Below, one piece after another: positions 18,267 to 27,343 of a DNA stretch of 64,000 nt. The notes below the pieces were generated by a model that was given only the letters and a program-made list of their open reading frames with translations, was not told where the DNA came from and searched no databases. Position 1 is the stretch's first letter. Every line of letters begins with the position of its first letter. Made by a program: the position numbers and the translations under genes. This stretch comes from a virus: the IMG/VR virus record IMGVR_UViG_3300011113_000747, positions 32,001-96,000 of that record. One strand, written 5' to 3'.

Positions 18267-18341
18267 GGCTGCTTAGCTGAGATAGATTAGCGTCTGCCTG
18301 AAGAGCAGAATAGACTGGAGCGTTACCAGTAGCAGCCACCA
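18267..18341 (+). tRNA. tRNA-Phe(GAA)
   Basis: GGCTGCT/AGCAGCC acceptor; TCTGC-CTGAAGA-GCAGA; T-loop AGCGTTA; encoded CCA. Confidence 0.85.
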
Positions 18342-18409
18342 TTTTTAGTTGGAGAACTGATCCTTCAGACTTTCGGTGATCTGAAGCAAAGAAAACACCG
18401 TACAATTTC

Positions 18410-18498
18410 GGGACCTGCCCCCATCAATGGACTGTAAATCCATTGCCATTAATAAGATGGGAAGTTGGCAAGTGGTGCGTTACCACCAGGGCCCACCA
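18410..18498 (+). tRNA. tRNA-Tyr(GTA)-like, lacking a D-arm
   Basis: GGGACCT/AGGGCCC; ATGGA-CTGTAAA-TCCAT; T-arm GTGG-TGCGTTA-CCAC; ACCA. Confidence 0.65.
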
Positions 18499-18504
18499 TT
18501 TCAA

Positions 18505-18591
18505 GTTGGAGACATCGCGCTGTGTTGTCTTTAAAACGCTAACCAACAAGAACAAACCAGTCGTGTCTGCTGGTATAGAAAAAGACACACA
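18505..18591 (+). ncRNA. Candidate pseudoknotted RNA element
   Basis: GTTGG/CCAAC stem; its loop TGTGTTGTCTTT is complementary to downstream AAAGACACACA; intervening ACCAG/CTGGT hairpin. Confidence 0.4.
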
Positions 18592-18592
18592 T

Positions 18593-18685
18593 GGAGAGAG
18601 TCCGGCTAGACGAGGAGCAATCTTGGAAAGATTGTAGACGCAGCTCTGCTGGGTCTGGTGGGTGCGAGTCCCCCTCTCTCCTCCA
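18593..18685 (+). tRNA. tRNA-Ser(GGA)
   Basis: GGAGAGA/TCTCTCC; CAATC-TTGGAAA-GATTG; long variable arm; T-loop TGCGAGT. Confidence 0.85.
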
Positions 18686-18691
18686 TTTTCT

Positions 18692-18781
18692 GGGTAGTTA
18701 ACTAGACAAGCGCGCTAGGACCGACTTGAAATCGGATCGAGGTGTAAAAGCCTTGGGGTGCAAGCCCTCAGCTGCCCGCCA
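18692..18781 (+). tRNA. tRNA-Ser(TGA)
   Basis: GGGTAGT/GCTGCCC; CCGA-CTTGAAA-TCGG; variable arm; GCCA. Confidence 0.85.
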
Positions 18782-18787
18782 TTTTTT

Positions 18788-18862
18788 GCGGATATAATTC
18801 AGTGGTAGAATATCTCGTTGCCAACGAGAGTGTCGTCGGTTCAAATCCGACTATCCGCTCCA
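18788..18862 (+). tRNA. tRNA-Gly(GCC)
   Basis: Canonical cloverleaf; CTCGT-TGCCA-ACGAG; TCCA. Confidence 0.92.
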
Positions 18863-18871
18863 TTTTCAAAA

Positions 18872-18946
18872 GCGGTGTAGATGTTAATGGCTGCACACCT
18901 GACTTCCAATCAGAAGGAGGGGGTTCGATTCCCCCACACCGCACCA
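18872..18946 (+). tRNA. tRNA-Gly(TCC)
   Basis: GCGGTGT/ACACCGC; CTGA-CTTCCAA-TCAG; GGTTCGA. Confidence 0.9.
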
Positions 18947-18953
18947 ATTTTAA

Positions 18954-19030
18954 CGGGATGTAGCTCAGCCTGGTAGAGCGCTTGCTTTGGGAGCAAGATG
19001 TCGTCGGTTCGAATCCGGCTATCCCGACCA
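18954..19030 (+). tRNA. tRNA-Pro(TGG)
   Basis: Canonical; CTTGC-TTTGGGA-GCAAG. Confidence 0.92.
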
Positions 19031-19035
19031 TTTAT

Positions 19036-19128
19036 GGAGAGTTAACTGGACAAGCGCGCCAGGGATGTTTGCTAAACATCACGCACTTCCCTCAGAGGTG
19101 TGCGGGGCAGGACCGCAGCTCTCCTCCA
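19036..19128 (+). tRNA. tRNA-Ser(GCT)
   Basis: GATGT-TTGCTAA-ACATC; variable arm; T-loop GGCAGGA. Confidence 0.85.
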
Positions 19129-19136
19129 TTTTTATT

Positions 19137-19213
19137 CGGGTGGTGTCTGGACAAGTAAACGAGCTCGGTTTGGATCCGAGTATATGTGGGAGCGTTACCC
19201 ACTCACCCGACCA
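19137..19213 (+). tRNA. tRNA-Pro(TGG), second divergent copy
   Basis: CGGGTGG/TCACCCG; CTCGG-TTTGGAT-CCGAG; T-loop AGCGTTA. Confidence 0.8.
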
Positions 19214-19223
19214 ATTTCAAAAA

Positions 19224-19312
19224 TCCCCCTTAGCTCAGTGGTAGAGCGCTTGGCTGTTAACCAGGAGGCCCTTATAAGGTATAGCGACGATCGTAACGTC
19301 GAGGGGGAGCCA
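19224..19312 (+). tRNA. tRNA-Asn(GTT) with long variable arm
   Basis: TCCCCCT/AGGGGGA; CTTGG-CTGTTAA-CCAGG; variable hairpin CCTTATAAGG; T-arm CGACG-ATCGTAA-CGTCG. Confidence 0.8.
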
Positions 19313-19321
19313 ATTTCAAAA

Positions 19322-19407
19322 GCAGGTGTGGGTCAATTGGTTGACCAACAGACTTTTAATCTGTGCGAGTAATCGCTATGTGGGTTCGAGTCCCATCGCC
19401 TGCACCA
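19322..19407 (+). tRNA. tRNA-Lys(TTT) with long variable arm
   Basis: ACAGA-CTTTTAA-TCTGT; variable arm GCGA-GTAA-TCGC; canonical T-arm. Confidence 0.85.
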
Positions 19408-19416
19408 ATTTCAAAT

Positions 19417-19493
19417 ATCCGGCCATGTTCCAAGGCTAGGCGACGCGGACTCCAAATTTGCGTGGGTCAGTTCAATTCTGACGCCGGATGCCA
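19417..19493 (+). tRNA. tRNA-Trp(CCA)
   Basis: ATCCGGC/GCCGGAT; GCGGA-CTCCAAA-TTTGC. Confidence 0.8.
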
Positions 19494-19501
19494 TTTCAAA
19501 T

Positions 19502-19577
19502 GCCCCATTAGTATAACGGACAGAACACTCGGCTACGAACCGAGAGAAGGTAGGTTCAATTCCTCCATGGGGTACCA
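19502..19577 (+). tRNA. tRNA-Arg(ACG)
   Basis: GCCCCAT/ATGGGGT; CTCGG-CTACGAA-CCGAG. Confidence 0.9.
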
Positions 19578-19580
19578 TTT

Positions 19581-19655
19581 CGCGCAATGGTGTAAGGTAA
19601 AGCACGCTGGCCACACTGGCGCCAGAGGAAGGGTGAAAAGCCTGATGCGCAACCA
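19581..19655 (+). pseudogene. Degenerate tRNA-like unit, anticodon not readable
   Basis: GCGCA/TGCGC acceptor, D-arm-like TGGTGTAAGGTAAAGCAC, CTGGC/GCCAG arm with a 9-nt loop, 3' ACCA. Confidence 0.5.
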
Positions 19656-19663
19656 TTTCAAAT

Positions 19664-19742
19664 GCTCCAGAAGCTACAGTAGACGGGCAGCTGGCTCTTA
19701 ACCAGAAGATTCGTGTGGTTGCAACTACCACCTGGAGTACCA
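19664..19742 (+). tRNA. tRNA-Lys(CTT)
   Basis: GCTCCAG/CTGGAGT; CTGG-CTCTTAA-CCAG; T-loop TGCAACT. Confidence 0.85.
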
Positions 19743-19752
19743 ATTTCAAAAA

Positions 19753-19829
19753 GCCCCGGTAGCATAACTGGTAACTGCAGCAGTCTCAAACACTGAAGAG
19801 TGTCGGTTCGAATCCGACTCGGGGTACCA
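19753..19829 (+). tRNA. tRNA-Leu(CAA) with short variable loop
   Basis: CAGT-CTCAAAC-ACTG; 5-nt variable loop; canonical T-arm; A73. Confidence 0.8.
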
Positions 19830-19834
19830 ATTAA

Positions 19835-19921
19835 GGAAGCACCAGCTGAGATGGACGCTCTGCGGAGAAGTGTTACTTGTGCAAGAAAGCTAAACGAACG
19901 CTTTCCAGCTGACTTCCACCA
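19835..19921 (+). ncRNA. CCA-ended tRNA-like small RNA
   Basis: GGAAG/CTTCC plus CAGCTG/CAGCTG closing stems, internal hairpins, 3' ACCA followed by the array spacer ATTTCA. Confidence 0.5.
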
Positions 19922-19928
19922 ATTTCAT

Positions 19929-20027
19929 GGGAGTGTGAAGCCAAAGGCTAGGCTAGTGGTTCGATTCCACTTTAATTGCTGGTGCACTCGACGGAGCAAG
20001 AGGGTTCGAATCCCTTCACTTCCACCA
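19929..20027 (+). tRNA. tRNA-Ser(CGA) with extra-long variable arm (99 nt)
   Basis: GGGAGTG/CACTTCC; AGTGG-TTCGATT-CCACT; TTGCT/AGCAA variable arm; A73. Confidence 0.75.
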
Positions 20028-20036
20028 ATTTCAAAT

Positions 20037-20120
20037 GGGCTTGTGGATAACCAGAAACAGCAGAATGGCTCGGCTTAAACCCGATGATCCTTGAGGGTGC
20101 AACTCCCTTCAAGCCTACCA
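20037..20120 (+). tRNA. tRNA-Leu(TAA), enlarged D region, short variable loop
   Basis: GGGCTTG/CAAGCCT; TCGG-CTTAAAC-CCGA; T-loop TGCAACT. Confidence 0.75.
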
Positions 20121-20128
20121 ATTTCAAT

Positions 20129-20205
20129 GCCCTGGTAGCATAACTGGCAACTGCGTCTGACTTAGGATCAGAAGAATGGGGGTTCGAATCCCTCTCAGGG
20201 TACCA
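20129..20205 (+). tRNA. tRNA-Leu(TAG) with short variable loop
   Basis: TCTGA-CTTAGGA-TCAGA (G37); D-arm nearly identical to Leu(CAA). Confidence 0.85.
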
Positions 20206-20213
20206 ATTTCAAA

Positions 20214-20288
20214 GGCCTATAAGCATAGATAGCGATGTATCCGTTTTGTAGTCGGAATAGGAGTGCGCAAGTCACTCATGGGCCTCCA
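20214..20288 (+). tRNA. tRNA-Thr(TGT)
   Basis: GGCCTAT/ATGGGCC; TCCG..TTTGTAG..CGGA; T-loop CGCAAGT. Confidence 0.8.
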
Positions 20289-20294
20289 TTTTAT

Positions 20295-20369
20295 TACCCT
20301 CTAGTGTAATGGTTAACACACCTGACTTTGACTCAGGTAGTCCTCGTTCGAATCGAGGGAGGGTAGCCA
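20295..20369 (+). tRNA. tRNA-Gln(TTG)
   Basis: TACCCTC/GAGGGTA; CCTGA-CTTTGAC-TCAGG. Confidence 0.9.
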
Positions 20370-20379
20370 ATTTTCAAAT

Positions 20380-20442
20380 GGGGTGTCCTGTGCCGCCTAG
20401 CAGGGTAATGGAAAATCTTGGGCTAACCTCCACATTCCACCA
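20380..20442 (+). ncRNA. 63-nt CCA-ended mini tRNA-like RNA
   Basis: GGGGTGT/ACATTCC acceptor-like stem plus ACCA; only two internal hairpins. Confidence 0.45.
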
Positions 20443-20451
20443 ATTTCAAAT

Positions 20452-20529
20452 AACCCTATCGTATAGTCTGGTTGAGTATGTCTGTCTCTGAAACAGAAGG
20501 CCCTGGTTCAAATCCAGGTAGGGTTGCCA
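20452..20529 (+). tRNA. tRNA-Gln(CTG)
   Basis: AACCCTA/TAGGGTT; TCTGT-CTCTGAA-ACAGA. Confidence 0.88.
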
Positions 20530-20551
20530 ATTTCAAACAACAAACACAAAC

Positions 20552-20833
20552 ATGTGGCCAAGCATTAATAATTTTAAAATCTTATCACCAAAAGAAAAAT
20601 GTATAGCTGCATTTCATTATTGGGTTGAAACACAAACAGATGGTAGTGTTTCTTGGAGACATGCAAATACATGTACAACTTCTCTAACACAAAAGCAGCA
20701 GATGCATTATAGAAAATATTATGAAGTGCTTCATGCAATTAGGTTTGTTATTCATACTGAACGCTATGATTTGCTAATTTCTGAGCATCAAGCATTGAAT
20801 GCTCTCAATGATGGCAACAATGTTTTAGTTTAG
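20552..20833 (+). CDS. Hypothetical protein inserted in the tRNA array
   Basis: 93 aa AT-rich ORF filling the gap between tRNAs. Confidence 0.55.
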   Translation: MWPSINNFKILSPKEKCIAAFHYWVETQTDGSVSWRHANTCTTSLTQKQQMHYRKYYEVLHAIRFVIHTERYDLLISEHQALNALNDGNNVLV

Positions 20834-20839
20834 TAAAAA

Positions 20840-20914
20840 TGCTCTCGGGAGGTAAGGATCTCGGACCGTCTCATAAGCGGTGTTAAGTGGGTGCAATCCC
20901 CACGGGAGCGACCA
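20840..20914 (+). tRNA. tRNA-Met(CAT), elongator Met or Ile2 not distinguishable
   Basis: TGCTCTC/GGGAGCG; ACCGT-CTCATAA-GCGGT; T-loop TGCAATC. Confidence 0.8.
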
Positions 20915-20920
20915 ATTTAA

Positions 20921-20936
20921 GGAAATACGATATAAT
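20921..20936 (+). promoter_or_regulatory. GGAAA-N5-TATAAT promoter (internal to array)
   Basis: ggaaa tacga tataat. Confidence 0.6.
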
Positions 20937-20957
20937 AATAGAGTAATAAATTTAAAA

Positions 20958-21035
20958 GTCCCTGTAGTTAACGGAAGGCTATAACATCGCCCTTTCACGG
21001 CGAAATACCCGGTTCGACCCCGGGTGGGGATGCCA
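20958..21035 (+). tRNA. tRNA-Glu(TTC)
   Basis: TCGCC-CTTTCAC-GGCGA; GGTTCGA. Confidence 0.88.
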
Positions 21036-21044
21036 ATTTCAAAT

Positions 21045-21118
21045 GACCCTGTAGATTAATAGTAAATCGCCACGCTTTCAACGTGAAGACGACGGAGCAT
21101 AACCGTCCTGGGTTGCCA
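21045..21118 (+). tRNA. tRNA-Glu(TTC), second divergent copy
   Basis: CACG-CTTTCAA-CGTG; T-loop AGCATAA. Confidence 0.8.
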
Positions 21119-21127
21119 ATTTCAAAT

Positions 21128-21205
21128 AGAGCCGAAGTCAAACAGCATTGACGCTCGCCTGTCGAGCGAGATATAAAGTGGGGGCAGCACCCATCGGCTC
21201 TGCCA
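21128..21205 (+). tRNA. tRNA-Asp(GTC)
   Basis: AGAGCCG/CGGCTCT; CTCGC-CTGTCGA-GCGAG; T-loop GGCAGCA. Confidence 0.82.
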
Positions 21206-21213
21206 ATTTCAAT

Positions 21214-21289
21214 CCTTCTGTAGCTGAGTGGTTTTTAGCAGCGTCTTGATAAGGCGCAGACGTAGGTTCAATTCCTACCAGAAGGACCA
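21214..21289 (+). tRNA. tRNA-Ile(GAT)
   Basis: CCTTCTG/CAGAAGG; GCGTC-TTGATAA-GGCGC. Confidence 0.9.
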
Positions 21290-21297
21290 ATTTCAAA

Positions 21298-21373
21298 AGC
21301 CCTATAGCCCAACAGCAGAGGCAATACGTTAAGGGCGTATTCAGTGCAGGTGCAAATCCTGCTAGGGGTACCA
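21298..21373 (+). tRNA. tRNA-Leu(AAG) with short variable loop
   Basis: ATACG-TTAAGGG-CGTAT (A34, G37); T-loop TGCAAAT; one acceptor-stem mismatch. Confidence 0.72.
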
Positions 21374-21378
21374 ATTTT

Positions 21379-21561
21379 ATGAAAATAATTGTCAACACAG
21401 AACAAGAAAAGATTGCTTTATTAAAAGCTTCAAAATACATTCATGATCTAAAATGTTTAGATACAAGCGATGATGCTGTTAATACAATAGCTCATTTGTA
21501 TTGTGCACCATTTTTAATTGAAGTTGATCCTAATTTAAAAATTTCAGTTGAACAACAATAG
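21379..21561 (+). CDS. Hypothetical protein inserted in the tRNA array
   Basis: 60 aa AT-rich ORF between tRNAs. Confidence 0.5.
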   Translation: MKIIVNTEQEKIALLKASKYIHDLKCLDTSDDAVNTIAHLYCAPFLIEVDPNLKISVEQQ

Positions 21562-21576
21562 GAAAGAGTATATAAT
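21561..21576 (+). promoter_or_regulatory. GGAAA-N5-TATAAT promoter
   Basis: TTGAAC-17 nt-TATAAT with GGAAA in the spacer. Confidence 0.65.
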
Positions 21577-21593
21577 ATTGTTGTAGATAAAAA

Positions 21594-21669
21594 TCCCAAG
21601 TAGCTCAGCGGTAGTAGCGAGTGGCTGTTAACCACTAGGTCGCTGGTTCGATCCCAGCCTTGGGAGCCA
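21594..21669 (+). tRNA. tRNA-Asn(GTT), canonical copy
   Basis: TCCCAAG/CTTGGGA; AGTGG-CTGTTAA-CCACT. Confidence 0.92.
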
Positions 21670-21679
21670 TTTTCAAAAT

Positions 21680-21753
21680 TGCAGGTAGGTGGTCTAGTGA
21701 CCATTCTGGGCTCATAACCCGGAGAGCGTGGTGCGATTCCCGGCCTGTTACCA
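21680..21753 (+). tRNA. Initiator tRNA-fMet(CAT)
   Basis: GGG/CCC anticodon stem around CTCATAA; 1:72 mismatch; T-loop TGCGATT. Confidence 0.8.
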
Positions 21754-21761
21754 ATTTCAAT

Positions 21762-21837
21762 GCCCGGTTAGCTCAGCGGTAGTAGCACCGCCTTTACACG
21801 GCGACTGTCGCAGGTTCAATCCCTGCACCGGGTACCA
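21762..21837 (+). tRNA. tRNA-Val(TAC)
   Basis: CGCC-TTTACAC-GGCG; canonical. Confidence 0.9.
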
Positions 21838-21843
21838 GTTTAT

Positions 21844-21919
21844 GGGGCCATAGCACAATTGGTAGTGCACCTGCTTTGCAAGCAGAAGGTTACCGGTTCG
21901 ACTCCGGTTGGCTCCACCA
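21844..21919 (+). tRNA. tRNA-Ala(TGC)
   Basis: GGGGCCA/TGGCTCC with G3:U70; CTGC-TTTGCAA-GCAG. Confidence 0.92.
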
Positions 21920-21929
21920 ATTTCTAAAT

Positions 21930-22025
21930 GATCGGCGTCTGAAAAGGTAAGAGAAACCTCTCCCACTGCAAACGTTAGCAGATGAAGTTTTGAGCTTTCA
22001 TAACGACGAGTATACCTGGTCACCA
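21930..22025 (+). ncRNA. CCA-ended multibranch small RNA
   Basis: GATCGG/CTGGTC plus ACCA; CGTC/GACG inner stem enclosing three hairpins. Confidence 0.5.
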
Positions 22026-22030
22026 ATTTC

Positions 22031-22170
22031 AGAACATTCAATCAACCGCAACACAGAGGTCGATCTTGCAAGCCGAGTACCTCTGACGGCTCTGATAACA
22101 GGTGCGCTTGCACGAGCCTTGCGAATGGTTCTGCATGCACCAGCTGAATTAGCTACTCAGTGTGGTGCTA
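22031..22170 (+). ncRNA. Candidate structured RNA
   Basis: AGAACATTC/GAATGGTTCT, CGCAA/TTGCG, CAGAGG/CCTCTG, GGCTC/GAGCC, then a GCACCA/TGGTGC hairpin. Confidence 0.45.
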
Positions 22171-22201
22171 AATTTTTTAATTAACTATAATAAATATTAA
22201 C

Positions 22202-22660
22202 ATGAAAAAAGATTTAAAACTCATTGCAGAAGCTTATAACAAGGTTATTATTGAACAAATAACTGATGATTGGTTTCAACAAGGAGCATTTCAAGCTTAT
22301 AAAAAGCCAGCAAAAGAACCATATCAAGTTGCAAAGCAAGATGGTGTGTTACAGACCTTAGAAGGACCACAACAATACAAAGCTGGTTTTTATATTATTA
22401 CAGGACCGAAAGGTGAAAAATATTCGATGCCTCCAGAAAAATTCAATGAATTAAAAGATGATAACGGGGATGGTACAGCTTCACCTAAAAAAATTATTAA
22501 GCAAGTAAAATTAGCTGATTCAGATGGTGTTGTAAAAACTTCATGGGGAGCTGATTTACAATATAAGTCTGGGGAAGATTATATTGTTAAACATGGTCCG
22601 GGTGATTATGGTGTGGTAAAGAAAGATATTTTTCAGCAAACATACGTATCCGAACAATAA
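22202..22660 (+). CDS. PGDYG-motif protein (duplicated domain)
   Basis: HGPGDYGVVKKDIFQQTY; two similar halves; TAAATA at 22191. Confidence 0.75.
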   Translation: MKKDLKLIAEAYNKVIIEQITDDWFQQGAFQAYKKPAKEPYQVAKQDGVLQTLEGPQQYKAGFYIITGPKGEKYSMPPEKFNELKDDNGDGTASPKKIIKQVKLADSDGVVKTSWGADLQYKSGEDYIVKHGPGDYGVVKKDIFQQTYVSEQ

Positions 22661-22670
22661 ATTTTTCAAT

Positions 22671-22745
22671 GCGCAATGAGCCAGCTGGCGTAGGCAGCGG
22701 TCTGCAAAATCGCTTAGTAGGGTTCGATTCCCTAATTGCGCTCCA
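22671..22745 (+). tRNA. tRNA-Cys(GCA)
   Basis: GCGCAAT/ATTGCGC; GCGGT-CTGCAAA-ATCGC; U73. Confidence 0.9.
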
Positions 22746-22770
22746 ATTCTAGTACGCGTATCCGGCGCTA

Positions 22771-22836
22771 GGCTCGTCGCTGGTTAATTCTAGACATCTG
22801 AGATTCCAAATTTCAGATGAAGTTAACGGGCCGCCA
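22771..22836 (+). ncRNA. Long hairpin ending in GCCA
   Basis: GGCTCG/CGGGCC, GTTAA/TTAAC and CATCTGA/TCAGATG stacked stems. Confidence 0.4.
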
Positions 22837-22858
22837 ATTTTTTTAGTTGAATTAGATA

Positions 22859-22874
22859 GGAAATATCTTATAAT
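22859..22874 (+). promoter_or_regulatory. GGAAA-N5-TATAAT promoter
   Basis: TTGAAT-16 nt-TATAAT with GGAAA in the spacer. Confidence 0.65.
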
Positions 22875-22897
22875 AAAGGTGTAAACAAACAACAAAA

Positions 22898-22980
22898 GCC
22901 CCGGTAGCGGATCCGCCTTCTAAGCGGAGCATTGTACCGTAATTGGACGCATACAGGTTCGAGTCCTGTTCGGGGTACCA
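22898..22980 (+). tRNA. tRNA-Arg(TCT)-like, lacking a D-arm
   Basis: GCCCCGG/TCGGGGT; 7-nt linker; TCCGC-CTTCTAA-GCGGA; CGT-AATTGG-ACG hairpin; ACAGG-TTCGAGT-CCTGT; ACCA. Confidence 0.7.
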
Positions 22981-22990
22981 TTTTTCAAAA

Positions 22991-23067
22991 TCCCTGCGTA
23001 TCATAATTAGTTAATGTCCTCGCCTGTGAAGCGAGCTAAGACGGGGCAGAACCGTCCCAGGGAACCA
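22991..23067 (+). tRNA. tRNA-His(GTG) without G-1/C73
   Basis: CTCGC-CTGTGAA-GCGAG; T-loop GGCAGAA; discriminator A. Confidence 0.78.
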
Positions 23068-23074
23068 TTTCATC

Positions 23075-23362
23075 ATGACAACCACACGCAAAGATAAAAT
23101 TTTAGTTTTCCAACACAAAATAACTAATTTATATTTAGCAGTATGGCGTGAGCCGGGATCAACTTCTTATTTTTGGACATATGATGTTAATGATGCTATG
23201 CAGTCAAATGTATGGGATGAAAATCATGCAATTTTTCAGAACATTGAAAAGGCAGACCCTGCAAAATATTTTGACCCCATGAGAAGCAATGAAATTAAAG
23301 ATTGCAAACTTGTAATGTTTGAAAAAGAGTCTACAATCAATTACAAACAAATTTCATCATGA
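23075..23362 (+). CDS. Hypothetical protein
   Basis: 95 aa ORF; ATGA overlap with the next ORF. Confidence 0.6.
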   Translation: MTTTRKDKILVFQHKITNLYLAVWREPGSTSYFWTYDVNDAMQSNVWDENHAIFQNIEKADPAKYFDPMRSNEIKDCKLVMFEKESTINYKQISS

Positions 23363-23706
23363 CAACATCAACAATCATCAATGAAGATTATGCAATGGAG
23401 CTTACGATGTTGCATCGTTACAGAGACCTTTCAGATGGTCTTTCGGTAATAGAATTTGATTGCAACTTTGATTGGTATCATGGTGATCATTGTCCAAAGT
23501 TTGATTTGAGTCTGAGATTATTCAATTGGACTATTTTTGAGTTTAACATCTACAACAGACATCATGTTGTAGATGAAATAGGCGATGTTTTATTGCCTTG
23601 GGCAAAACAAGATTTTGAAGAATCAGACAAAGCTTTTATAGAGCTTGTAAAAAATTCCGGAATAGTTGCAAACGAGGGTTCGAAACCTCCAGTAGCATCT
23701 AACTGA
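23359..23706 (+). CDS. Hypothetical protein
   Basis: 115 aa ORF, translationally coupled to the previous one. Confidence 0.6.
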   Translation: MTTSTIINEDYAMELTMLHRYRDLSDGLSVIEFDCNFDWYHGDHCPKFDLSLRLFNWTIFEFNIYNRHHVVDEIGDVLLPWAKQDFEESDKAFIELVKNSGIVANEGSKPPVASN

Positions 23707-23940
23707 GATTCAAAGCATCGAAGTTTATAGGTTTGAACGACGGGTTGTTGGCCCGGTAGGTGTGTTCGAGTGCACACGTGCTTTGAGTCTCGACAATTCA
23801 TCTGGCTGTTGCAATGAGGTAAAGACCCAACGCAATGCCAAATAGTCCAAAAAGTAAGAGTAAAATATTCATAAGGGCTGCATTTCAAAACTATGGCAAA
23901 GCTTTTGCTATAGCGATGAAAATTGCAGCAATGCAAAAAA
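23705..23940 (+). ncRNA. Candidate structured RNA with a tRNA-like cloverleaf closed by a 13-bp stem
   Basis: GAGATTCAAAGCA/TGCTTTGAGTCTC encloses three hairpins including GTGTG-TTCGAGTG-CACAC; further long hairpins follow. Confidence 0.55.
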
Positions 23941-23996
23941 ATCCAAGAAACATGTGGATTATCTCAAGGAAGTTCATATAGTTATTTATTCAAAAT

Positions 23997-24084
23997 GCTG
24001 GTGTGGCTGAGCGGCCTAAAGCACTAGTTTTGTAAACTAGCGGGAGTGATCCCATCGTCAGTTCGAATCTGACCACCAGCTCCA
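23997..24084 (+). tRNA. tRNA-Thr(TGT) with long variable arm and class II-type D-arm
   Basis: GCTGGTG/CACCAGC; GGCTGAGCGGCCTAAAGC; CTAGT-TTTGTAA-ACTAG; GGGA-GTGA-TCCC. Confidence 0.88.
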
Positions 24085-24090
24085 TCTTCC

Positions 24091-24270
24091 ATGAACAATC
24101 GCAGATCATTCTTCAAAAGACTCATTGGCTTAATCGCTGCACCAAAGGTTGCGAAAGCAACACACTCAAGCAACATAGTCAAAATGTGGACACCTGAAAC
24201 AGGTGTTACATATGGTGAGTATATTCATCCAGGCATTTGTATTAAACAAATTGACAAAACGGGGAGTTAG
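24091..24270 (+). CDS. 59 aa protein with a twin-arginine-like N-terminus
   Basis: Manual translation MNNRRSFFKRLIGLIAAPKVAKA...; stop overlaps the tRNA-Val 5' end. Confidence 0.5.
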   Translation: MNNRRSFFKRLIGLIAAPKVAKATHSSNIVKMWTPETGVTYGEYIHPGICIKQIDKTGS

Positions 24271-24334
24271 TATAGAAGCAGTACATTGGCTCGACACGCC
24301 AAAGAAGAAGGAGCGTTACCTTCACTCCCTACCA
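24261..24334 (+). tRNA. tRNA-Val(GAC)
   Basis: GGGGAGT/ACTCCCT; TTGGC-TCGACAC-GCCAA (C33); T-loop AGCGTTA. Confidence 0.8.
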
Positions 24335-24345
24335 TAAATATATTC

Positions 24346-24828
24346 ATGAAGTTTGATGATGTTGTAAACGAAGCACTTTCACGTCTTTCGCCTGTAAAAC
24401 TATATAGAGGAGCTGAACCAGATGAGGATCCTTCGAGTGAAGTAGAAAGACCTTGGGCCCAAGGTCGTGAATTAGATTTTCGTGCTGCATTTATGAAAGG
24501 AGATGTTGATGAAGTTATCAGCATGCTGCGTAAGCATGCTGGTGATTCTGGTGTAAGAGCAAAAGGTATAAAGTCATATTCTTTGAATAGAGATGTAGCA
24601 AAAGAGTTTATTTTCGACAAAGGTATAATTAAAGAATTAGATATACCCGCTAAAAACATAATTTCATCAAGACAAAGACTACAAACAATTTTATCTTTAC
24701 CTGATCAACAAAAACAGCAACTGCTCGATCAGGGTGTAGGATTCAACGTTAATAGATTGCTTTCCAAATATAAATTTGCTGCATCTGATCCAGATACAGA
24801 GCAAGAAATAATGATTTACAAAAAGTAA
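24346..24828 (+). CDS. Putative ADP-ribosyltransferase (R-S-E type)
   Basis: LYRG, SYSLNRDVAKEF, EQEIMI. Start moved to ATG 24346 because the track start lies inside the tRNA; TAAATA at 24335. Confidence 0.6.
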   Translation: MKFDDVVNEALSRLSPVKLYRGAEPDEDPSSEVERPWAQGRELDFRAAFMKGDVDEVISMLRKHAGDSGVRAKGIKSYSLNRDVAKEFIFDKGIIKELDIPAKNIISSRQRLQTILSLPDQQKQQLLDQGVGFNVNRLLSKYKFAASDPDTEQEIMIYKK

Positions 24829-24906
24829 GCCAACTATCGCTCCACCCGACAGATAGCTTTGCATGACGGTGCAAATGACCCTGAAAATCGCAAGGAGCAA
24901 AATCAT

Positions 24907-24981
24907 GGTTTCTAAGCATAGACAGCGATGCACACGATTGGTATTCGTGATAGAGGAGCGCAAATCTCCTAGGAGCCTCCA
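24907..24981 (+). tRNA. tRNA-Thr(GGT)
   Basis: GGTTTCT/AGGAGCC; CACGA-TTGGTAT-TCGTG; T-loop CGCAAAT. Confidence 0.82.
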
Positions 24982-26899: not shown

Positions 26900-27343
26900 G
26901 GGGGCGTTCTGGTTTCGACTCAATTGGTTGAATCAAGTTCGCATGCAGAGGTAGACTAGCTGGCCTCTATAAAAGCAAGTCAAAAAACATAAACGCAGAA
27001 GACACTGAAGTCGATGCCCTCTTAGCACAAGCTGAGTACATCTTCAACAACGCTGACGAATTCGTCACCGCTGATGTTGAAGAAGCTCTCTTTGCCTAAG
27101 CAAAAACAGAAATGGATCCTATTAAAATTTCTGAGGTAACCAATAGGTTGAGCTGAACAATGTATGCTCTTAAATCAAACATTGGGGTGACCTCGGACTC
27201 TTCACCGAAGTAGGTAGGCTCTAAAACTTAGGTTGATACGCCATGCAAACCTGTTGCCAATGAAATTGCAAATGTATCTAAGCATGTAGACAACTTAGCT
27301 GATACTATTGAACACAGGGGTTCGACTCCCCTCGCCTCCACCA
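26900..27343 (+). ncRNA. ssrA: tmRNA
   Basis: GGGGGCG...GGTTTCGAC 5' end; GGGGTTCGACTCCCC-TCGCCTCCACCA 3' end with G3:U; tag frame 26995-27099 after ATAAAC. Confidence 0.95.

What the first reader, a model, noticed from the sequence alone, without database searches (positions are those of the whole stretch)
22898..22980. tRNA-Arg(UCU) with no D-arm and a D-arm-like hairpin relocated 3' of the anticodon arm
Seen: acceptor stem GCCCCGG/TCGGGGT, anticodon arm TCCGC-CTTCTAA-GCGGA, canonical T-arm and ACCA are all intact. Only 7 nt (TAGCGGA) separate the acceptor from the anticodon stem. The variable position holds CGT-AATTGG-ACG, whose loop matches the usual D-loop AATTGG. Established: the D-loop G18/G19 pair with the T-loop to form the tRNA elbow. 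Inference: this may be a topologically rearranged tRNA in which the elbow GG is supplied from the variable side. It is the only AGA decoder in the array and sits behind its own promoter (22859), which argues against simple decay.
Basis: partly seen in the sequence, partly recalled or inferred. Interest (0 to 1): 0.88.

Follow-up and report, generated by a model that had tools for sequence, protein, structure and literature searches.

The report
Phage arginine tRNA with rewired D-arm
This 83-base phage gene is very probably a working arginine tRNA that is not a cloverleaf: half of its D-arm lies after the anticodon arm and pairs back around it, a layout shared by over a hundred phage tRNAs that annotation mostly misses and that I found in no paper.

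Summary
The D-arm is split: canonical positions 22-26 follow the acceptor stem, and positions 10-20 (D-stem strand, G18-G19, A20) lie 3' of the anticodon arm. The strands (22907-10, 22937-40) pair around the anticodon arm. In 113 distinct homologues chosen without regard to this helix, its two core pairs are Watson-Crick in 112 and 111, one with all four pair types. Identity elements follow the anticodon: A20 in 81/82 Arg genes, but U20 in 28/31 and A73 in 31/31 Ile/Met genes. Moving the 12-nt block back in silico gives an ordinary tRNA-Arg. It is the genome's only AGA reader; AGA is 46% of its Arg codons. Homologues sit unannotated in phi92, PBECO4 and BASEL phage Bas93; Bas93's relatives phiEco32 and Bas91 carry a cloverleaf tRNA-Arg just upstream of the same gene. 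No expression, charging or decoding data were obtained. This scan already found the class in other genomes; I found no paper on it.

The parts
22858..22875 (+). Promoter-like motif (AGGAAA-N5-TATAATA), 22 nt upstream of the gene
   Evidence: One of 63 copies in the genome, all on the + strand; also a sigma-70-like hit. Promoter function is inferred.
22898..22980 (+). Rewired (non-cloverleaf) tRNA-Arg(UCU) gene, 83 nt with encoded CCA
22898..22904 (+). Acceptor stem, 5' strand (pairs with 22970-22976)
   Evidence: Helix 1: 98% of cells paired, all 7 pairs covary; this stem was also a selection filter
22905..22906 (+). Invariant U-A: U8, followed by an A probably equivalent to A21 (or A9)
   Evidence: Invariant in alignment A1; numbering is inferred
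22907..22911 (+). D-stem strand equivalent to canonical 22-25, plus A26; here 5' of the anticodon arm
   Evidence: Pairs with 22937-22940
22912..22928 (+). Anticodon arm: 5 bp, 7-nt loop, anticodon UCU at 22919-22921
   Evidence: Sequence; stem covaries
22929..22936 (+). Connector from the anticodon arm to the relocated D strand; its first 2 nt may pair with 22949-22950 (a variable-arm stub that would make a pseudoknot)
   Evidence: 3-16 nt in nearly all homologues; 7 of the 8 longest connector types show a 3-4 bp complement of varied sequence; only 2 bp here, so tentative
22937..22940 (+). Relocated D-stem strand equivalent to canonical 10-13
   Evidence: Pair 11:24 Watson-Crick in 112/113 and pair 12:23 in 111/113
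22941..22947 (+). Relocated D-loop 14-20: A14, A15, G18-G19 (22945-46) and A20 (22947, ArgRS identity element)
   Evidence: A20 in 81/82 Arg and 1/31 Ile/Met homologues; A20 identity from PMC9976931
22948..22952 (+). Connector to the T arm ending in U48, the Levitt partner of A15
   Evidence: 15:48 is A-U in 108, G-C in 3 and mismatched in 2 of 113
22953..22969 (+). T arm, 5 bp with canonical loop
22970..22980 (+). Acceptor 3' strand, discriminator A73 (22977) and CCA
18410..18498 (+). Second gene of similar layout in the same array: tRNA-Tyr(GUA), with a 6-bp helix (18420-25 with 18456-61) closing around the anticodon arm
   Evidence: Sequence and fold; covariation not obtained here

Best explanation
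The gene encodes a working tRNA-Arg(UCU) whose backbone runs through the usual L-shaped core in a different order. After the acceptor strand and U8 the chain goes straight into the strand that is normally the 3' half of the D stem (22-26), then through the anticodon arm. It then passes a short connector into the normal 5' half of the D stem (10-13), which pairs back with 22-25. It continues through an open D loop (A14, A15, G18, G19, A20) and reaches U48 and the T arm. Shown by comparative analysis: the nested helix, the 15:48 pair, and an identity base at position 20 that follows the anticodon. Inferred: the U8-A14 and G18/G19-T-loop contacts and the L shape; transcription from the promoter at 22858 together with the downstream tRNA-His; 5' trimming by host RNase P; charging by host ArgRS (the phage encodes none); and decoding of AGA, the phage's commonest Arg codon. 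Speculative: the rewiring arose by an internal duplication and loss that swapped the blocks 9-20 and 21-45, and it is kept because it escapes host nucleases that cut ordinary tRNA-Arg.
For: Family of 113 distinct sequences, selected only on acceptor, anticodon and T stems plus a D-loop-like motif. Central pair Watson-Crick in 112/113 with all four types (shuffle mean 33, maximum 54 in 10,000); next pair 111/113 (shuffle mean 75, maximum 87); third pair 91/113; parallel controls about one third. Slid-register controls give 38-45% paired against 97%. RNAalifold predicts the same helix unprompted. On a tree built without those columns the two sides of the central pair change 34 times each and the pair 35 times. 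A20 in 81/82 Arg genes over five anticodons; U20 in 28/31 and A73 in 31/31 Ile/Met genes, matching the bacterial identity sets in PMC9976931. 15:48 switches A-U to G-C in 3 genes. In-silico reordering gives a 76-nt cloverleaf that ARAGORN calls tRNA-Arg(tct). It fills the missing AGA slot of a near-complete tRNA set, and AGA is 46% of Arg codons. Only 4 of about 70 family loci hold a separate canonical Arg(UCU), though the loci are partial. In Kuravirus-like phages a cloverleaf tRNA-Arg(UCU) (phiEco32, Bas91) or the rewired one (Bas93) lies just upstream of the same gene. E. coli HisRS, EF-Tu and ribosome accept an engineered D-armless tRNA (PMC11551756).
Against: No RNA, charging, decoding or structural data. 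The tree of 65-column sequences is weak: only 2-4 independent contrasts lie on supported branches, all in the expected direction but too few for significance. The 13:22 position is mostly a U-U or C-U mismatch, so the conserved helix is only 2-3 bp. Three GTDB-derived members had A20 imposed by the search pattern, as did the other GTDB UCU hits; the 61 did not. Identity conservation shows selection for synthetase recognition, not ribosome use.
Confidence: 0.74

Rival explanations
1. Same rewired fold, but the RNA is a tRNA mimic rather than a ribosomal adaptor: a decoy or inhibitor for tRNA-cutting or tRNA-sensing host defences, possibly charged but little used in translation.
For: This array also holds CCA-ended units with no readable anticodon. 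Phage tRNAs have been proposed to counter host tRNases (PMC10264068).
Against: Eight ordinary sense anticodons, each with U33, a purine at 37 and matching synthetase identity bases; a strict 7/5 acceptor-T geometry; it replaces rather than accompanies the canonical gene.
Confidence: 0.14
2. The gene is a scrambled precursor that is cut and re-ligated into an ordinary cloverleaf, by analogy with permuted and split tRNAs of algae and archaea. The covariation would look the same.
For: Reordering the blocks yields a perfect cloverleaf. This genome encodes Rnl1-like and Rnl2-like RNA ligases, and 4 of 5 isolate carriers have Rnl1.
Against: It would need three cuts and three joins inside an 83-nt RNA. 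Connector length (3-16 nt in nearly all) and sequence vary freely, with no shared splice motif. Long members have a variable-arm helix that only makes sense in the unspliced order. Bas93 carries the gene with neither ligase. No such pathway is known to me in bacteria (own knowledge).
Confidence: 0.05
3. One reading: a D-armless tRNA with a self-contained 3-bp hairpin in the variable position that presents the GG.
For: The hairpin can be drawn in this sequence and is within 1 kcal/mol of the nested helix.
Against: Its variable pairs hold in 43% and 36% of homologues, with mutual information 0.18 and 0.37 bit against 0.90 and 1.89 bit for the nested pairs. It would also bury A20 in a stem.
Confidence: 0.02
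4. A functional tRNA that is charged with an amino acid other than arginine (recoding or missense suppression).
For: Odd phage and bacterial tRNAs with shifted identity exist (allo-tRNAs, PMC5389517).
Against: The full bacterial Arg identity set is present (A20, C35, U36, A73), and A20 is lost exactly when the anticodon is not Arg.
Confidence: 0.03
5. A decayed pseudogene or an assembly artefact.
For: Missed by ARAGORN and by default Rfam.
Against: Identical in three independent assemblies, one with a different upstream region; more than 100 covarying homologues, including cultured phages.
Confidence: 0.01

Closest known systems
Canonical bacterial and phage class I tRNA-Arg(UCU) (Rfam RF00005), e.g. 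the phiEco32 and Bas91 genes
   Same: 7-bp acceptor, 5-bp T stem, 5-bp anticodon stem with 7-nt loop, U8, A14, R15:Y48, G18-G19, A20, C35, U36, A73, CCA. The parts reorder into this form, and in Kuravirus-like phages both forms lie upstream of the same gene.
   Different: No D hairpin. The two D-stem strands are in swapped order and enclose the anticodon arm, and the D loop is an open strand 3' of it, giving a three-way rather than four-way junction.
D-armless mitochondrial tRNA-Ser(AGY) and the engineered E. coli mini HisT (PMC11551756)
   Same: A short linker joins the acceptor directly to the anticodon arm; not a cloverleaf.
   Different: Those have lost the D arm and are Y-shaped. Here all D-arm parts, the Levitt pair and the elbow GG are kept and relocated. 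Natural arm-less tRNAs are stated there to be restricted to mitochondria.
Permuted and split tRNA genes of red and green algae and archaea (own knowledge)
   Same: tRNA segments are encoded out of canonical order.
   Different: Those are restored to a cloverleaf by splicing endonuclease at bulge-helix-bulge sites and swap whole 5' and 3' halves. Here the ends are in normal order, two internal blocks are swapped, and no splice motif is seen.
Allo-tRNAs and selC* tRNAs (Mukai et al., PMC5389517)
   Same: Non-standard tRNAs of bacteria and phages found by comparative search.
   Different: They are cloverleaves with 8/4 or 9/3 acceptor branches; this gene has a 7/5 branch and a rewired core.
tmRNA tRNA-like domain and bacterial Y RNAs such as YrlA (own knowledge)
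   Same: An elbow built without a standard D stem.
   Different: They have no decoding anticodon arm in this position. Rfam finds no tmRNA or YrlA match at this locus.

Membership tests
Canonical cloverleaf tRNA (RF00005) | 7-bp acceptor stem, discriminator and CCA | tested here: met
Canonical cloverleaf tRNA (RF00005) | 5-bp T stem with T-psi-C loop | tested here: met
Canonical cloverleaf tRNA (RF00005) | Anticodon arm with 7-nt loop, U33 and purine 37 | tested here: met
Canonical cloverleaf tRNA (RF00005) | D hairpin between acceptor and anticodon arm | tested here: not met
   7-nt linker only; the D helix is nested around the anticodon arm
Canonical cloverleaf tRNA (RF00005) | Core tertiary residues U8, A14, R15:Y48, G18, G19 | tested here: met
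   Conserved; 15:48 covaries in 3 genes. A14-G19 were partly imposed by the search patterns; the contacts are inferred
Canonical cloverleaf tRNA (RF00005) | L-shaped three-dimensional fold | not testable with these tools
   No RNA structure data
Arginine isoacceptor (bacterial ArgRS substrate) | A20, C35, U/G36, A/G73 | tested here: met
   A22947, C22920, U22921, A22977; A20 tracks Arg anticodons
Arginine isoacceptor (bacterial ArgRS substrate) | Charged with arginine and decodes AGA | not testable with these tools
   No expression or biochemical data
D-armless mitochondrial-type tRNA | D-arm residues lost, no G18/G19-T-loop elbow | tested here: not met
   D-stem pairs, the GG and the 15:48 pair are retained
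Permuted or split tRNA genes | 3' half encoded before the 5' half, or halves on separate genes | tested here: not met
   Acceptor strands are in normal order in one gene
Permuted or split tRNA genes | Processing to a cloverleaf by cutting and ligation | not testable with these tools
   Needs RNA sequencing; no conserved splice motif seen in alignment A1
Allo-tRNA / selC* | 8/4 or 9/3 acceptor branch | tested here: not met
   7/5 branch

The most novel reading that the evidence does not exclude
Phages widely use a second, natural wiring of the tRNA fold. It is a non-cloverleaf (three-way, sometimes pseudoknotted) adaptor that unmodified bacterial RNase P, ArgRS or IleRS, EF-Tu and ribosomes handle as it is. 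It has spread to at least eight anticodons by switching position 20 and the discriminator, and it is kept because host tRNA-cutting defences do not recognise it.
Probability: 0.3. Interest if true: 0.95.

Novelty: new variant of a known kind. Interest (0 to 1): 0.86.

Why it matters
[quoted passage not shown] This class would be a natural exception working with bacterial machinery, showing that the tRNA core tolerates a different strand order. It is directly testable, because E. coli phages phi92, PBECO4 and Bas93 carry it and Bas93 has relatives with a cloverleaf tRNA-Arg at the same place. That makes the long-standing question of why phages carry tRNAs testable with a natural pair of genes. 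It also exposes a systematic gap in phage annotation (the genes are absent or labelled tRNA-OTHER or tRNA-Undet) and offers a new scaffold for engineered tRNAs.

Tried and rejected
Single-sequence folding was uninformative (z -0.59). The search for related loci with the 349-aa neighbouring protein found no relatives. A narrow pattern found only the two near-identical copies. A pattern scan for Tyr(GUA) relatives gave no usable family, so the window's Tyr gene is described but not tested. A short anticodon-loop pattern search in isolate genomes was too unspecific to use. The tree-based sign tests had too few supported contrasts. Ten literature searches and term look-ups in PMC7609411, PMC5389517, PMC12037408, PMC9976931, PMC11551756 and PMC10264068 found no description of this layout; most subscription papers and older phage tRNA work are outside that library. 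No phage ArgRS, RtcB or CCA-adding enzyme was found in the genome. The host was not identified. One earlier scan note says part of the same claim fell in a later check, without saying which part; I could not retrieve it.

Full report
Context. The window is part of a complete 184,542-bp phage record with terminal repeats. It carries DNA polymerase, helicase, SbcC-like and tail sheath stabiliser genes of large tailed phages. The finding lies in a tRNA array of about 18.2-27.3 kb that also holds a tmRNA. The host is unknown.

Observation. ARAGORN does not call it, and Rfam calls it only with lax filters, at 33.2 bits. Two other IMG/VR contigs hold the identical 83 nt, one with a different upstream region, which excludes misassembly. 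The site at 22858 is one of 63 copies of a promoter-like motif, all on the + strand. No other gene with a UCU or CCU anticodon arm was found, and AGA makes up 46% of Arg codons in 179 long ORFs.

Family. Filtering on acceptor, anticodon and T stems alone left 77 loci and 67 distinct genes: 61 with a U-A-led linker of 7-8 nt like the window's, and 6 of a second subtype with a longer nested helix. Further scans added other anticodons. The final set of the window's subtype is 113 distinct genes: 82 Arg (UCU 69, CCU 5, UCG 5, ACG 2, GCG 1) and 31 Ile/Met (GAU 13, UAU 12, CAU 6). In GTDB genomes the members found were all on MAG contigs. I checked members by sequence in cultured phages Bas93, Vibrio phage 184E37.3a, phi92, PBECO4 and Streptomyces phage Francob; none is annotated there. 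A BLAST with the Bas93 gene found 146 phage records, and the 60 listed were unannotated, overlapped by hypothetical ORFs, or labelled tRNA-OTHER or tRNA-Undet.

Structure. The linker after U8-A pairs instead with the bases just before the D-loop string. In alignment A1 two pairs are kept in 60/60 sequences, one with all four Watson-Crick types, and a third in 47/60; slid controls fall to 38-45% paired. RNAalifold predicts the same helix unprompted. In the full set the counts are 112, 111 and 91 of 113, and they hold separately in the non-UCU Arg and Ile/Met subsets. On a tree built without these columns the two sides of the central pair change 34 times each and the pair 35 times, so nearly every change is double. 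The tree is weak, and only 2-4 contrasts lie on supported branches. In canonical numbering, 22907-22911 are positions 22-26 and 22937-22947 are positions 10-20. Moving the 12-nt block 22936-22947 back behind U8 and dropping the 7-nt connector gives a 76-nt cloverleaf that ARAGORN calls tRNA-Arg(tct). Position 15 and the base before the T stem behave as a Levitt pair: A-U 108, G-C 3, other 2. In members with long connectors the two connectors pair with each other by 3-4 bp of varied sequence, which makes the D helix a pseudoknot inside a variable arm; the window's gene has a possible 2-bp stub.

Function. A20 is the main bacterial ArgRS determinant; U20 and A73 belong to the IleRS set (PMC9976931). 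In the family A20 occurs in 81/82 Arg genes and 1/31 Ile/Met genes; the latter have U20 in 28 and A73 in all 31. The switch needs 9 changes for each trait on the tree and is seen in several connector subfamilies. The relocated loop is therefore under selection as a synthetase-read D loop. The phage has no ArgRS, so the host enzyme is implied. phiEco32 and Bas91 have a cloverleaf tRNA-Arg(UCU) just upstream of the gene that follows the rewired one in Bas93, which suggests equivalence. E. coli machinery accepts an engineered D-armless tRNA (PMC11551756), so use of this better-built RNA is plausible. Expression, charging, decoding and the L shape were not observed.

Rivals. A decoy role fits the viral distribution but explains the matched anticodon and identity sets less well. 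Re-splicing to a cloverleaf predicts the same covariation, and this genome has two RNA ligases. Against it, the connectors are free in length and sequence, and Bas93 has neither ligase.

Novelty. Ten searches and six papers gave no description of this layout, and one 2024 paper states that all known bacterial tRNAs are cloverleaves. The library omits most subscription papers. The scan's own notes show the same class reported from other genomes; I had reached the structure before reading them and do not count them as evidence. It works like a tRNA-Arg but fails the defining cloverleaf feature, so I file it as a new structural variant of tRNA. Odds: nested topology about 0.95; working arginine tRNA used as encoded about 0.74.

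Noticed in passing
window 18410-18498: The tRNA-Tyr(GUA) gene also lacks a D hairpin. A 6-bp helix (18420-25 with 18456-61) can close around the anticodon arm, and a 3-bp variable-arm helix would make a pseudoknot. Missed by ARAGORN and Rfam.
   Followed up: partly
L020, L021, L022, L067, L088, L089, L107: A second subtype of rewired tRNA-Arg(UCU): a 5-6 bp nested helix starting close to the acceptor stem, no invariant U8-A, and a possible 3-bp variable-arm helix. It resembles the window's Tyr gene.
   Followed up: partly
L254, L262, L319, L348, L351, L219, L333 and others: Rewired tRNAs with Ile/Met (GAU, UAU, CAU) and other Arg anticodons, often several per array; L319 has at least four of the window's subtype and L219 three Arg genes in tandem.
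   Followed up: yes
whole genome; window 17352, 17712, 18062, 20920, 21560, 22858, 25001, 26138, 57903, 61060: A promoter-like motif AGGAAA-N5-TATAATA occurs 63 times, all on the + strand. In most copies an ATG follows about 5 nt later, which suggests leaderless mRNAs.
   Followed up: partly
window 21930-22025 and 22771-22836: Two CCA-ended units with an acceptor-like closing stem but no readable anticodon arm. They share an 11-nt motif (near 21979 and 22814) that can pair with an upstream complement, so they may be one small RNA family. The second lies just before the Arg gene's promoter.
   Followed up: no
window 18267-24981: Many tRNA genes in the array have non-standard T loops and are missed by ARAGORN (for example His near 22991, Asp near 21128, Phe near 21045), so the array is larger than the 21 genes called.
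   Followed up: no
window 19224, 19322, 23997, 26798; 19753, 20129, 21298: Asn, Lys, Thr and Ile(UAU) genes are 86-96 nt with long variable regions, while the Leu genes are only 76-77 nt, the reverse of the bacterial norm.
   Followed up: no
window 26900-27343: Phage-encoded tmRNA (Rfam 105 bits) with an apparently long tag reading frame; ARAGORN does not call it.
   Followed up: no
L121:2474-2582 (E. coli phage Bas93): The rewired gene has no encoded CCA; its acceptor stem is extended by a further 11-12 bp of flanking inverted repeat, and it sits directly after an HNH endonuclease gene.
   Followed up: no
L429:1375-1495 (E. coli phage Bas91): An unannotated, CCA-ended tRNA-like element with a UAU anticodon-like loop and a long irregular body follows the canonical tRNA-Arg.
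   Followed up: no
genome C1:165096-165668 and 174426-174920 (outside the window): The phage encodes both Rnl1-like and Rnl2-like RNA ligases, consistent with tRNA repair against host nucleases.
   Followed up: partly
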